Shown here piece after piece: positions 12,234 to 13,606 of a DNA stretch of 43,851 bases. How positions within the stretch are numbered: position 1 is the first letter of the stretch; every line of letters starts with the position of its first letter. Made by a program: the position numbers and the translations under genes. Under the pieces are notes generated by a model. The model worked only from the letters and a program-made list of their open reading frames with translations. It was not told the origin of the DNA and did not search any database. Origin of the DNA: a virus (taxonomy: Duplodnaviria; Heunggongvirae; Uroviricota; Caudoviricetes); IMG/VR virus record IMGVR_UViG_2531839640_000007; one strand, given 5' to 3'.

Positions 12234-12344
12234 GTAATAATCACTTTTTCAACCGTGCTATAGTAAGAAAGTTAGGTAAGTACAATAAAATTATCTATCC
12301 TGAACGAAGCGTCCTGAGCTATGGTTTTACTATAGGGACTGCCA

Positions 12345-12584
12345 ATGGATGCTGGCGTTCTCGTTCTAGCAGTTCAACAATACCCAATCACAAAACAATT
12401 CACTGATAACAAACTTTGTGCACGTGCTTGGTTATGGCGAGCAGGTGATGTGATGTTAACTGCCTGCCAGAACGTTACTCCACTACTTCAGGTTGCGGAG
12501 CACCGCGAAGCCGGCCGCTTTACTTCTATCGAGCATGAATATCCCCAGATACTCAACAGAGCGCGAGCAATCCTCGCCAGATAA
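12345..12584 (+). CDS. Hypothetical protein, 79 aa
   Basis: ORF followed about 100 nt later by a rho-independent terminator; no family recognised. Confidence 0.35.
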   Translation: MDAGVLVLAVQQYPITKQFTDNKLCARAWLWRAGDVMLTACQNVTPLLQVAEHREAGRFTSIEHEYPQILNRARAILAR

Positions 12585-12688
12585 ACGGCACATGTAAAAT
12601 TCCAGCCGTGGCTGGATGATAAGTGGAGTCGAGTGTTACCATATTTCCGTCAGAATCTGTTCCAATAAAGTCACTAGTTAGAAATACT

Positions 12689-12727
12689 GCCAGCATTCTA
12701 CGATGACGGAAGTGCTGGCATTTTTTG
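12689..12727 (+). terminator. Rho-independent terminator GCCAGCATTC-loop-GAAGTGCTGGC then TTTTTT
   Basis: 10/11-bp stem with one bulge plus T6 run. Confidence 0.6.
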
Positions 12728-12902
12728 GGTAATATGCGAGTCCATTTCATAAAATACGGGTGCTGTAAACTGGACGATATAATCTAAAATATACCATTAC
12801 CAGTAGCCTTCAAATCGCTATGTGCCGATACGGATAAAATTATATTGATTGTGCACATACCTTATTGGATATTACTGAGGGGTATTTATATAAGGTGTAA
12901 CG

Positions 12903-13412
12903 ATGATGTGGAACTTTGACAGTGCCGACTTAAGTGCAATAGCAGCAGGTATTTCTGCGTTTGGCACATTAGCCGCAGCGGGGTCGGCGCTTGCAAGTTG
13001 GTACACGTCAAAAAAAGCGCTGCAGCTACAAAATAGAGTTTACCTTTATGAGTCTTTAAAGGCTTGCGCTGAGAGAGCCAATTCATCAGCTAAAGATAAG
13101 CGCGGATCTGAATGGAGCGTTAATGATGCAGCGGATATCATCAGGTGCCTAGTACGGGCGATGGAGATCATCAAGCAGGATAGCCAGCAGAAAGAAGGTA
13201 ATCAGGCATTAATGTTGAAACAGTACTTTGTTAATCTGCTAATAATGGAACTGTACGAGGAAGTTCATAACGGTGATGCGGCTGATTCTGTTTTTAAAAG
13301 TACGGAACCTACACAAGTACTTGATAACTTATGGAGCAAATGGCAGGAGGCTATAGCTTTTTTTGATATTTGGAATTACCCAGTTGCGACTGAGGAAGAC
13401 TTGGCAGACTAA
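12903..13412 (+). CDS. Hypothetical protein, 169 aa, with N-terminal small-residue-rich TM helix (LSAIAAGISAFGTLAAAGSALASWY) and helical soluble domain
   Basis: ORF with AAGGTG RBS, AT-rich upstream region; no family recognised. Confidence 0.55.
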   Translation: MMWNFDSADLSAIAAGISAFGTLAAAGSALASWYTSKKALQLQNRVYLYESLKACAERANSSAKDKRGSEWSVNDAADIIRCLVRAMEIIKQDSQQKEGNQALMLKQYFVNLLIMELYEEVHNGDAADSVFKSTEPTQVLDNLWSKWQEAIAFFDIWNYPVATEEDLAD

Positions 13413-13606
13413 TTTTCAGCACATTTGATTTCCAATAATCAACCAGCCATAATCATGCCATTGGAGCCTGAACAACTCCGGTGACTTCTGCGCTAAACGG
13501 GGACGTTTATGCGCACATACAAACCAACCTATCTTCTCCATTCACAGATGCAGAAATGCACCTGCGATATATTGTATCCAGCGTTTGACCTCTGCGGAGG
13601 TGAAGC

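What the first reader, a model, noticed from the sequence alone, without database searches (positions are those of the whole stretch)
12234..13606. Uncharacterised two-gene insert (79 aa, terminator, 169-aa TM-helix protein) in the nin cargo slot
Between the recombinase remnant and the ybcN/ninE/ybcO/rusA block, where DLP12 carries ybcL and ybcM, there are two ORFs with no recognisable family. The first (12345-12584) is followed by a good intrinsic terminator (12689-12727). The second (12903-13412) has an AT-rich upstream region, an AAGGTG RBS, and an N-terminal small-residue-rich TM helix reminiscent of membrane-active effectors. This slot is a known cargo position in lambdoid phages, so a sensor/effector or toxin/antitoxin-like module is plausible but unproven.
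Basis: partly seen in the sequence, partly recalled or inferred. Interest (0 to 1): 0.65.

Follow-up and report, generated by a model that had tools for sequence, protein, structure and literature searches.

The report
Dead antirepressor stub plus orphan prophage gene
The supposed two-gene insert is the decayed tail of a phage antirepressor gene followed by one intact, self-contained prophage "extra" gene for a small membrane-anchored protein of unknown function, so it is ordinary prophage cargo and not a new two-part defence system.

Summary
The ORFs, the terminator and the swap against DLP12 ybcL-ybcM are real: window 12273-13423 replaces K-12 ybcL-ybcM. They are not a two-gene module.

ORF1 (12345-12584) does have a family. 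It is a Pfam P22AR_C fragment, the 3' stub of a Bro-N/P22AR_C antirepressor-like gene that is intact in phages PhiR26_1 and PhiR5_1. Here it lacks its 5' half and carries a GAA>TAA nonsense codon at 12582; RefSeq calls it a pseudogene. The terminator (12688-12727) is that gene's own terminator.

ORF2 (12903-13412, 169 aa) is a genuine gene. dN/dS is about 0.1 with synonymous sites near or at saturation. It is present in 181 of 5,426 complete E. coli genomes and belongs to PHROG 1779 (unknown function). Only 35 clusters at 50% identity exist among 1.84 billion proteins. It has no Pfam, NCBIfam, PADLOC, PDB or fold match.

ORF2 travels alone. It has a conserved sigma-70-like promoter, lower GC than its neighbours, varied upstream genes and no conserved partner: a classic moron. 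The protein is predicted to be bitopic (N-out, helical cytoplasmic domain, invariant acidic C-terminus). A lysogen-expressed exclusion or abortive-infection role is my best guess, but it is inference only.

By-product: 13425-13610 is a strongly covarying leader RNA with a leader ORF upstream of ninB, absent from Rfam.

The parts
12273..13423 (+). Segment that replaces ybcL-ybcM of K-12 DLP12 (the cargo swap). It holds the antirepressor stub, its terminator and ORF2.
   Evidence: blastn of the window against K-12 shows homology at 11448-12272 and again from 13424.
12345..12668 (+). Pseudogene: the 3' remnant of a Bro-N + P22AR_C antirepressor-like ('Rha/Ant') gene.
   Evidence: Pfam P22_AR_C E 2.4e-12; PHROG anti-repressor hits. 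RefSeq calls it a pseudogene with an internal stop. The intact 202- and 249-aa genes in PhiR26_1 and PhiR5_1 carry Bro-N + P22AR_C. The DNA alignment shows homology starting at about 12340.
12582..12584 (+). TAA nonsense codon. It is GAA (Glu) in relatives, where the truncated ORF is open for 107 codons.
   Evidence: Translations of the window against L013 and L040; alignment A2.
12688..12727 (+). Intrinsic terminator of the antirepressor-like gene: a 10-bp stem followed by U6, starting 20 nt after the gene's true stop at 12666-12668.
   Evidence: RNAfold dG -20.1 kcal/mol, z -4.2. It is conserved in PhiR26_1 and PhiR5_1, with substitutions only in the loop.
12845..12873 (+). Sigma-70-like promoter of ORF2: -35 TTGATT (12845-12850), a 17-nt spacer, and -10 GATATT (12868-12873).
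   Evidence: TTG of the -35 and GATATTA are invariant across 7 lineages whose upstream DNA is otherwise unalignable. At 8 of 12 matches it is below the threshold of the generic scan, so it is predicted, not shown.
12857..12885 (.). Inverted repeat ATACC..N19..GGTAT bracketing the -10 (AATACCCTGA..N12..TCAGGGTATT in the best-preserved relatives). It could be an operator or a hairpin; its role is unresolved.
   Evidence: 82% of cells pair, against 35-52% when the partners are slid, but there is little covariation. The window's copy does not fold better than shuffles (z -0.95). The motif occurs only once in the window.
12903..13412 (+). ORF2: a 169-aa protein (WP_000990013.1, PHROG 1779). It has a predicted N-terminal transmembrane helix (about residues 10-33), an all-helical cytoplasmic domain, and an invariant acidic C-terminus T-[DE]-EDL-x-D. 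The SD AAGGTG lies at 12892-12897.
   Evidence: phrog_1779 E 1e-102. pN 0.14-0.27 against pS 0.65-0.89, with dN/dS 0.09-0.16. Found in 181 of 5,426 E. coli genomes. AF2 pLDDT 85. No Pfam, NCBIfam, PADLOC or PDB match and no informative fold match.
13425..13453 (+). Promoter of the ninB leader: TTGATT, 17 nt, CATAAT, with a TTGAT-N8-ATCAA palindrome. It marks the right boundary of the cargo slot. It is not part of ORF2 but lies inside the finding's coordinates.
   Evidence: Promoter scan, 9 of 12 matches. It is conserved in front of about 50 different upstream contexts. Phage 82 record X92588 annotates it as a putative -35/-10.
13453..13610 (+). Structured leader RNA of ninB/ybcN. It has hp1 (13459-13483), hp2 (13489-13515), hp3 (13542-13567, terminator-like) and hp4 (13581-13608, which sequesters the ninB SD and start). 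It also holds the 33-codon leader ORF ylcH/orf33 (13509-13610), whose stop overlaps the ninB GTG.
   Evidence: Covariance model R1 gave 62 hits. 97.7% of cells pair against 28-36% when slid; 17 pairs change on both sides; 0 of 500 shuffles reach the observed values. RNAfold z -3.9. The leader ORF is kept in frame in 55 of 58 distinct copies. There is no Rfam match.

Best explanation
The region holds two unrelated things left side by side by mosaic recombination.

(1) ORF1 is a dead stub. It is the C-terminal P22AR_C part of a Bro-N/P22AR_C antirepressor-like gene. The gene lost its 5' DNA-binding half at the junction with the emrE-ybcK segment, and in this (O104:H4/55989) lineage it also gained a nonsense codon. 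The 'good terminator' is simply that gene's terminator.

(2) ORF2 is an autonomous moron, meaning a single gene with its own sigma-70-type promoter. The gene body has lower GC than the phage genes around it. In some relatives it also has its own terminator. It sits in the cargo slot directly upstream of the ninB-operon promoter.

ORF2 encodes a bitopic inner-membrane protein. It has a short acidic N-terminus outside the cell, one small-residue-rich transmembrane helix, and a roughly 130-residue helical bundle in the cytoplasm that ends in an invariant acidic tail.

Shown here: gene reality, family limits, stand-alone mobility, and promoter conservation.

Inferred: ORF2 is transcribed from the prophage. 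It probably works without enzymatic chemistry, because the family has no conserved catalytic-type residues. It would act by binding a partner at the cytoplasmic face of the membrane. The most likely role is as a single-protein superinfection-exclusion or abortive-infection factor that benefits the lysogen.

Confidence is about 0.9 for the anatomy and about 0.3 for the defensive function.
For: ORF1:
- Pfam P22_AR_C match and RefSeq pseudogene call.
- Intact Bro-N + P22AR_C homologues sit in the same position in viable phages.
- The alignment shows the truncation point and the GAA>TAA change.
- Every truncated copy has emrE-ybcK upstream, and every intact copy does not.

ORF2 is a real gene:
- Synonymous sites are near or at saturation (pS 0.65-0.89) while pN is 0.14-0.27, giving dN/dS 0.09-0.16.
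- There are 15 clusters at 90% identity and 35 at 50% identity, all about 150-180 aa long.
- It is intact and annotated in 181 E. coli genomes.

ORF2 stands alone:
- Its upstream neighbour is the Ant-like gene in E. coli, a DUF551 protein in L004 and unknown ORFs in L005.
- Distant members sit after N in the pL operon, or next to pyocin or AAA_15 cargo.
- About 75 nt upstream are conserved with invariant TTG-N20-GATATTA.
- A strong terminator follows the gene in L050-L055.
- GC is 0.40-0.45 against 0.49-0.54 for the nin genes.

Topology and fold:
- The hydrophobic segment scores KD 1.6-2.3.
- The acidic N-flank and basic C-flank are conserved across the family.
- The AF2 model has pLDDT 85 and is all-helical.

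Slot behaviour:
- PhiR26_1 carries the known defence gene PD-lambda-1 between ren and the Ant-like gene.
Against: - There is no expression data. The promoter matches only 8 of 12 consensus positions and was not picked up by the generic scan.
- PADLOC and Pfam (which includes SieB, RexB and Imm families) give nothing for 25 diverse members.
- The window's own hydrophobic segment is at the threshold for a TM helix (1.59).
- The gene lies in the sense orientation inside the pR early operon. It could therefore equally be a delayed-early lytic accessory gene.
- Distant family members lack the acidic tail, and their upstream regions show no clearly matching promoter motif.
Confidence: 0.5

Rival explanations
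1. ORF2 is a delayed-early lytic-cycle accessory gene. It would be expressed mainly by antiterminated pR read-through and would act on a host membrane-associated process such as FtsH/HflKC proteolysis, cell division, lysis timing or a membrane-bound replication factor. It would help phage growth or the lysis-lysogeny decision and would not protect the lysogen.
For: - It has the same orientation as, and sits inside, the pR operon between the replication genes and ninB in every nin-region copy.
- One distant subfamily sits in the pL early operon just after N.
- It is retained in viable, inducible phages PhiR26_1 and PhiR5_1.
- It has no defence-family signature.
Against: - It is dispensable: most phages with the same ninB module lack it (48 phage records carry the leader, 2 carry ORF2).
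- It has its own conserved promoter-like element and, in relatives, its own terminator. These features are typical of lysogen-expressed morons.
- It is kept intact in defective DLP12-like prophages, including the O104:H4 copy in which the neighbouring genes have decayed.
Confidence: 0.3
2. One reading: ORF1 and ORF2 form a two-gene sensor/effector or toxin-antitoxin-like defence module.
For: The two ORFs are adjacent on the same strand in a cargo slot. ORF2 has a membrane helix that could serve as an effector.
Against: - ORF1 is a truncated, nonsense-bearing fragment of an antirepressor-like gene.
- A terminator and about 235 nt separate the true stop of the gene remnant from ORF2.
- ORF2 occurs with the full-length Ant-like gene, or with quite different neighbours, in other lineages.
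- There are no PADLOC hits.
Confidence: 0.03
3. ORF2 is a lysis-type or membrane-permeabilising protein (holin, pinholin or SAR-like). In this reading its weakly hydrophobic Ala/Gly/Ser-rich helix oligomerises to form lesions in the membrane.
For: - The helix is rich in small residues (Ala, Gly, Ser), and A15, S18, A24, A29 and S32 are conserved on it.
- Its hydrophobicity in the window is marginal.
Against: - It has a single TM helix with a large conserved cytoplasmic domain, unlike holins.
- It lies in the early region, far from the lysis cassette. The prophage has its own essD/rrrD/Rz lysis genes.
- It has no holin Pfam or PHROG match.
- It is stably maintained in 181 genomes behind a constitutive-looking promoter.
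Confidence: 0.07
4. ORF2 is a conserved but functionless ORF or an annotation artefact.
For: It has no known domain, and the family is tiny.
Against: - There is strong purifying selection across lineages whose synonymous sites are near or at saturation.
- Length is conserved at 150-180 aa, and there are invariant motifs.
- The AF2 model is confident, with pLDDT 85.
- One decayed copy (L048: ATT in place of the start codon and a premature stop after 49 codons) shows what loss of constraint looks like.
Confidence: 0.03

Closest known systems
Bro-N / P22AR_C antirepressor-like proteins of lambdoid phages (annotated 'Rha protein' in PhiR26_1 and PhiR5_1; related to P22 Ant C-terminal domain, Pfam PF10548)
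   Same: ORF1 aligns to the C-terminal domain: 82-88% protein identity to residues about 99-202 of the PhiR26_1 protein. It occupies the same genomic position and has the same downstream terminator.
   Different: The N-terminal Bro-N domain is missing. The ORF starts at a fortuitous ATG in the junction and is cut again by a nonsense codon at residue 80, so it is a pseudogene.
PHROG 1779 (phage protein family of unknown function)
   Same: ORF2 matches the full length of the profile (E 1e-102), as do all 25 diverse relatives tested.
   Different: Nothing differs; ORF2 is a member. The family has no assigned function, no Pfam entry and no solved structure.
DLP12 ybcL-ybcM cargo of E. coli K-12
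   Same: It has the same flanks: ybcK on the left and the promoter of the ylcH-ybcN leader on the right.
   Different: The content is entirely different. K-12 carries a PEBP-family periplasmic protein and an AraC-type regulator. The window carries an Ant-like stub plus ORF2.
Prophage-encoded membrane exclusion or abortive-infection proteins (P22/lambda SieB, lambda RexB, HK97 gp15, T4 Imm)
   Same: These are small, prophage-borne, membrane-anchored proteins that work as single genes or small units, are moron-like, and are often expressed from their own promoters in the lysogen. This is an analogy from general knowledge and was not tested.
   Different: There is no sequence or profile similarity: no Pfam hit for any of 25 family members. 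The predicted topology (N-out, large cytoplasmic domain) differs from HK97 gp15 (periplasmic domain) and from the polytopic RexB. No phenotype is known.
Phage 82 orf33 region (X92588; Mahdi et al. 1996, J Mol Biol 257:561) and K-12 ylcH
   Same: The 13425-13610 leader is the same element. The phage 82 record annotates the putative -35/-10, hairpin 1 as a 'possible regulator-binding site', the RBS and orf33. The phi80 record marks hairpin 2 as IR4.
   Different: In the sources I could search, I found no description of the four-hairpin RNA structure, its covariation, or the conserved overlap of the leader ORF stop with the ninB start. There is no Rfam family.

Membership tests
P22AR_C / Bro-N antirepressor-like proteins (ORF1) | C-terminal P22_AR_C domain (PF10548) | tested here: met
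   E 2.4e-12, 47.2 bits against a cut-off of 22.4, covering profile positions 3-67 of 73.
P22AR_C / Bro-N antirepressor-like proteins (ORF1) | N-terminal DNA-binding domain (Bro-N in the closest intact relatives) and an uninterrupted reading frame | tested here: not met
   Bro-N is present in the 202- and 249-aa phage proteins but absent from the window. Homology begins at about 12340, there is a nonsense codon at 12582, and RefSeq calls the gene a pseudogene.
Two-gene defence or toxin-antitoxin module | The two genes co-occur and are co-transcribed across lineages | tested here: not met
   A terminator lies between them. ORF2 has other upstream neighbours in L004-L009, L050-L055 and L061-L070.
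Known anti-phage defence proteins (PADLOC-DB v2) | Profile match to a catalogued defence component | tested here: not met
   There were no hits for ORF1 or ORF2. Among 25 relatives there were only scattered single hits at E 0.002-0.04, consistent with noise. Newer catalogues were not available.
Moron (independent transcription unit inserted in a phage operon) | Own promoter upstream of the gene | tested here: inconclusive
   TTGATT-17-GATATT has invariant core bases in 7 lineages. However, it matches only 8 of 12 consensus positions and there is no transcript data.
Moron (independent transcription unit inserted in a phage operon) | Present or absent between otherwise syntenic phages, with deviating base composition | tested here: met
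   K-12 has ybcL-ybcM between the same flanks. Other phages carry other genes there. ORF2 GC is 0.40-0.45 against 0.49-0.54 for the nin genes.
Moron (independent transcription unit inserted in a phage operon) | Own terminator downstream | tested here: not met
   The window and the E. coli copies run straight into the ninB-leader promoter. A strong terminator (GGCCTCTCCGGAGGCCTTTTT) follows the gene only in L050-L055, and a different one follows it in L064.
Superinfection-exclusion or abortive-infection membrane proteins (SieB, RexB, Imm and similar) | Sequence or profile membership in the Pfam families of these proteins | tested here: not met
   No Pfam family was matched by more than 2 of 25 members at E<=1, and none of those matched is an exclusion family.
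Superinfection-exclusion or abortive-infection membrane proteins (SieB, RexB, Imm and similar) | Expression in the lysogen and protection against superinfecting phage | not testable with these tools
   This needs RNA or protein data and plaque assays.
PHROG 1779 | Full-length profile match | tested here: met
   E 1.2e-102 over residues 1-169 of 169; all 25 relatives also match.
Rfam RNA families (for the 13453-13606 leader) | Covariance-model match | tested here: not met
   There were no matches with E<=1 over 11000-15500 on either strand.

The most novel reading that the evidence does not exclude
ORF2 / PHROG 1779 could be a new single-protein anti-phage factor of lambdoid prophages. In this reading, a membrane-anchored cytoplasmic helical domain, through its invariant acidic C-terminal tail, captures an incoming phage or host component at the inner face of the membrane. 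It then blocks genome entry or triggers its small-residue TM helix to collapse the membrane potential. The family would be absent from the defence catalogue searched here (PADLOC-DB v2.0.0, 2023).
Probability: 0.3. Interest if true: 0.55.

Novelty: new member of a known kind. Interest (0 to 1): 0.3.

Why it matters
Taken as written, the finding would have added a new two-gene defence candidate to the lambdoid nin cargo slot. That is not what is there.

What remains is modest but useful. ORF2 is a clean single-gene candidate that is under selection. It is carried by about 3% of complete E. coli genomes, including the O104:H4 outbreak lineage, and by two cultivable phages in which it could be deleted. 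It could therefore be tested directly for exclusion or abortive infection.

The analysis also fixes the exact right-hand boundary of this cargo slot. That boundary is the -35 of a conserved promoter in front of a strongly covarying leader RNA with a leader ORF upstream of ninB. This element may control expression of the ninB-to-Q operon independently of pR. I found it in neither Rfam nor the literature I could search, and it may be the more interesting object for phage-regulation specialists.

Tried and rejected
- Pfam, NCBIfam and PADLOC scans of ORF2 gave nothing. Scanning 25 diverse relatives gave only scattered noise.
- A profile search of all PDB sequences gave nothing below E 3.7.
- An exhaustive HMMER search of 1.84 billion representatives found only 35 family members and no link to a larger family.
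- I tested whether the inverted repeat around ORF2's -10 is an RNA hairpin or terminator. It is conserved but shows almost no covariation. The window copy folds no better than shuffles. So its role as operator or hairpin is unresolved.
- I looked for the same motif elsewhere in the prophage, as a sign of a shared regulator. It occurs only once, or at chance level.
- Literature searches for the protein accession, PHROG number, ylcH/ybcN sRNA and lambdoid ninB hotspots found nothing on ORF2 or on the leader RNA. The HusR paper concerns a site upstream of rusA, not this region.
- The reverse-strand ORF 12553-12750 (65 aa) has no significant family and was dropped.
- The search for related loci with the wide alignment A3 failed because it has no conserved 7-10-residue stretch. 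The narrower alignment A1 was used instead.
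Full report
**What is in the sequence**

The window is a DLP12-like lambdoid prophage of E. coli. The interval 12234-13606 is 100% identical to strain 55989 and to the O104:H4 outbreak lineage. The emrE'-'ybcK deletion junction just upstream (window 11300-11600) occurs in only 15 of 5,426 complete genomes. The 12 listed in the output are O104:H4 outbreak-lineage strains. In 55989 both genes are intact.

Comparison with K-12 DLP12 confirms the swap:
- Homology runs through ybcK to window 12272.
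- It resumes at 13424.
- So 12273-13423 stands where K-12 has ybcL-ybcM.

**ORF1 is not an orphan**

The 79-aa product matches Pfam P22_AR_C (E 2.4e-12, 47 bits; cut-off 22.4) and anti-repressor PHROGs. RefSeq annotates 12345-12668 as a 'P22AR C-terminal domain-containing protein' pseudogene with an internal stop.

Two cultivable phages, PhiR26_1 and PhiR5_1, carry an intact gene of 202 or 249 aa at the same place. It has Bro-N plus P22AR_C domains and is annotated 'Rha protein'.

The DNA alignment shows three things:
- The window's homology to that gene begins only at about 12340.
- The reading frame continues to a shared stop at 12666-12668.
- The window has TAA where relatives have GAA, at 12582.

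Related prophages with the same 5' truncation keep a 107-codon open frame (L013, L040). The window's lineage does not.

Across 57 loci, every 5'-truncated copy has emrE-ybcK upstream, and every intact copy does not. ORF1 is therefore a twice-truncated remnant of an antirepressor-like gene.

**The terminator**

The hairpin plus U6 at 12688-12727 is real:
- dG is -20.1 kcal/mol and z is -4.2; no shuffle folds as well.
- The generic scan missed it only because its loop exceeds 8 nt.
- It starts 20 nt after the true stop of the antirepressor-like gene.
- It is conserved in the intact phages, with substitutions confined to the loop.

It is that gene's terminator, not a divider inside a module.

**ORF2 is a real, stand-alone gene**

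The 169-aa product (WP_000990013.1) matches PHROG 1779 (unknown function) over its full length (E 1e-102). It matches nothing in Pfam, NCBIfam or PADLOC.

The family is very small:
- 15 clusters at 90% identity among 5.8 billion proteins.
- 35 clusters at 50% identity among 1.84 billion.
- All members are about 150-180 aa long, and all 25 diverse members tested hit PHROG 1779.

Selection is strongly purifying. Between lineages pS is 0.65-0.89 (near or at saturation) while pN is 0.14-0.27. Where dS can be estimated, dN/dS is 0.09-0.16.

The gene is intact and annotated in 181 of 5,426 complete E. coli genomes and in two phage genomes.

**Genomic context of ORF2**

In every close lineage, ORF2 lies about 190 nt upstream of ninB/ybcN on the same strand. 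Its upstream neighbour varies:
- the Ant-like gene in E. coli;
- a DUF551 protein in L004;
- unknown ORFs in L005-L006.

Distant members (18-29% identity) sit in other variable spots of lambdoid prophages:
- in the nin region beside a pyocin S gene or an AAA_15 ATPase;
- in the pL operon right after N;
- in a prophage remnant.

No partner gene is conserved, which removes the basis for a sensor/effector or toxin-antitoxin pair.

**Regulatory signals of ORF2**

In seven lineages whose upstream DNA is otherwise unalignable, about 75 nt before the start codon are conserved. Within them, TTG(-35)-N20-GATATTA is invariant. In the window this is TTGATT at 12845-12850, a 17-nt spacer, and GATATT at 12868-12873.

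An inverted repeat brackets the -10 (ATACC 12857-12861 / GGTAT 12881-12885). Its evidence is mixed:
- It is conserved: 82% of cells pair, against 35-52% when partners are slid.
- It hardly covaries.
- It is not thermodynamically notable in the window (z -0.95).
- It occurs nowhere else in the prophage.

I cannot say whether it is an operator or a hairpin.

In L050-L055 the gene is followed by a strong terminator. In the window it abuts the next promoter. ORF2's GC (0.40-0.45) is below that of the nin genes (0.49-0.54).

Taken together, this is the anatomy of a moron. The promoter is predicted, not demonstrated.

**The ORF2 protein**

- The N-terminal hydrophobic segment is marginal in the window (Kyte-Doolittle 19-mer 1.59) and clearly transmembrane in homologues (1.9-2.3).
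- Across the family the N-flank is acidic and the C-flank basic. By the positive-inside rule this predicts N-out, C-in.
- With the wider alignment, AlphaFold gives pLDDT 85 and pTM 0.71. The model has one long helix (residues 7-63, TM plus stalk), a compact helical bundle (73-154) and a short C-terminal helix.
- The close subfamily ends in an invariant T-[DE]-EDL-x-D motif. Most, but not all, distant members keep an acidic D-L-x-D end.
- The nearly invariant positions are A, S, Q, L, N and W. They do not suggest a catalytic site.

**Most likely mechanism of ORF2**

I commit to this reading. ORF2 is a lysogen-expressed, non-enzymatic, membrane-anchored protein that acts at the cytoplasmic face of the inner membrane. 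Its most probable role is as a single-protein exclusion or abortive-infection factor.

The support is indirect:
- its moron anatomy;
- its retention in decaying prophages;
- the slot's habit of carrying accessory or defence cargo. PhiR26_1 has PD-lambda-1 a few genes upstream, and distant relatives sit beside pyocin and AAA_15 cargo.

I put this functional reading at about 0.3. The main rival, also about 0.3, is a dispensable delayed-early gene that acts on a host membrane process. The anatomical conclusions (pseudogene plus autonomous gene, not a pair) I put at about 0.9.

**By-product inside the finding's coordinates: the ninB leader**

The 194 nt between ORF2 and ybcN (13413-13606) are not a spacer. 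They hold a promoter, TTGATT-17-CATAAT (13425-13453), followed by a structured leader.

A covariance model built from 12 diverse copies found 62 instances in 100 phage loci, and one in the window at 13453-13603. On the resulting alignment:
- 97.7% of cells pair, against 28-36% when partners are slid.
- 17 of 26 pairs show changes on both sides.
- No shuffle of 500 reaches the observed values.
- One caveat applies: the alignment was fitted to the model.

G-U pairs place the structure on the + strand RNA.

RNAfold of the window copy gives four hairpins (z -3.9):
- hp1, 13459-13483, with the conserved loop CCUGAACAA.
- hp2, 13489-13515, with the conserved loop GGGGAC.
- hp3, 13542-13567, followed by a U-rich tract in most relatives but degenerate in the window.
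- hp4, 13581-13608, which pairs with the ninB Shine-Dalgarno sequence and start codon. Three covarying stem classes do this.

In 55 of 58 distinct copies, a 31-33-codon ORF (orf33/YlcH) has two conserved features:
- It starts 5-7 nt after the GGGGAC loop, inside hp2's 3' arm.
- It ends in a TGA overlapping the ninB start (ATGA or GTGA).

The promoter is preserved in front of about 50 unrelated upstream sequences. It is the exact right edge of the cargo slot.

Some of this was already annotated:
- The phage 82 record of 1996 marks the putative -35/-10, hp1 as a 'possible regulator-binding site', and orf33.
- The phi80 record marks hp2 as IR4.
- Lambda itself has only tR2 at this position.

Rfam has no such family, and I found no paper on it.

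My inference is a leader-peptide attenuator with translational coupling that gates the ninB-to-Q operon. Its layout (promoter, two stem-loops, then a terminator) also loosely recalls HK022 put (PMC9378689). This is untested.

**Verdict**

The interpretation as a two-gene module is not supported.

ORF1 is a known-family pseudogene. ORF2 is an uncharacterised member of an already catalogued phage family, and it behaves as ordinary prophage cargo. Interest is low to moderate (0.3).

The most novel surviving reading is a new single-gene membrane-anchored defence family, with probability about 0.3.

Noticed in passing
window 13425-13610: There is a conserved promoter (TTGATT-17-CATAAT, with a TTGAT-N8-ATCAA palindrome) followed by a four-hairpin leader RNA upstream of ninB/ybcN. 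Covariation is very strong: 97.7% of cells pair against about 30% when slid, and 17 pairs show compensatory changes. A 31-33-codon leader ORF (ylcH/orf33) starts in hairpin 2, and its stop overlaps the ninB start in 55 of 58 copies. It looks like a leader-peptide attenuator or translational-coupling device for the ninB-to-Q operon. It has no Rfam family. It was only partly annotated (promoter, one inverted repeat, orf33) in phage 82 in 1996..
   Followed up: yes
window 11207-12233 (junction at about 11433-11450): emrE is truncated after about codon 63 and fused to the C-terminal 266 codons of the serine recombinase ybcK by a deletion of about 1.1 kb. Both genes are intact in strain 55989 and in K-12. 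The junction is found in only 15 complete genomes, and the 12 listed in the output are O104:H4 outbreak-lineage strains, so it is a lineage marker.
   Followed up: partly
L002 (PhiR26_1) 3842-5344; L003 (PhiR5_1) 1-1213: Relatives of this prophage carry known defence or toxin cargo. PD-lambda-1 lies on the opposite strand between ren and the Ant-like gene in PhiR26_1. A HipA-like toxin pair lies beside cI in PhiR5_1. These are annotations as deposited.
   Followed up: no
L050-L055, immediately after the ORF2 homologue; L082, L124, L149, L157 and L163 upstream of the ninB-leader promoter: A strong intrinsic terminator (GGCCTCTCCGGAGGCCTTTTT and variants) sits directly against the -35 of the ninB-leader promoter in several lineages. 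This terminator-then-promoter arrangement would insulate the nin operon from upstream transcription.
   Followed up: no
L048 6001-6150: One ORF2 homologue (79% identical) has ATT in place of its start codon and a premature stop after 49 codons. Its upstream inverted repeat is also degraded. It is an example of the gene decaying.
   Followed up: no
window 12903-12908: ORF2 begins ATGATG. In PhiR5_1 and several prophages the first codon is ATA, so translation there must start at the second ATG (168 aa). Homologues align M-x-W with the first ATG.
   Followed up: partly
L132 (2276-2426 and 4587-4737) and L134 (10520-10671 and 12929-13078): Two viral contigs carry two copies of the ninB-leader element about 2.3 kb apart. 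The lower-scoring copy in each lacks the leader ORF.
   Followed up: no
L001 2575-3171 (between kil-like gene and cI in strain 55989; the corresponding window region was not examined): A stretch of about 600 bp has no annotated gene at the place where lambda has N. I did not check whether an N-like antiterminator or a put-like RNA is encoded there. This bears on how the nin-region terminators are read through.
   Followed up: no
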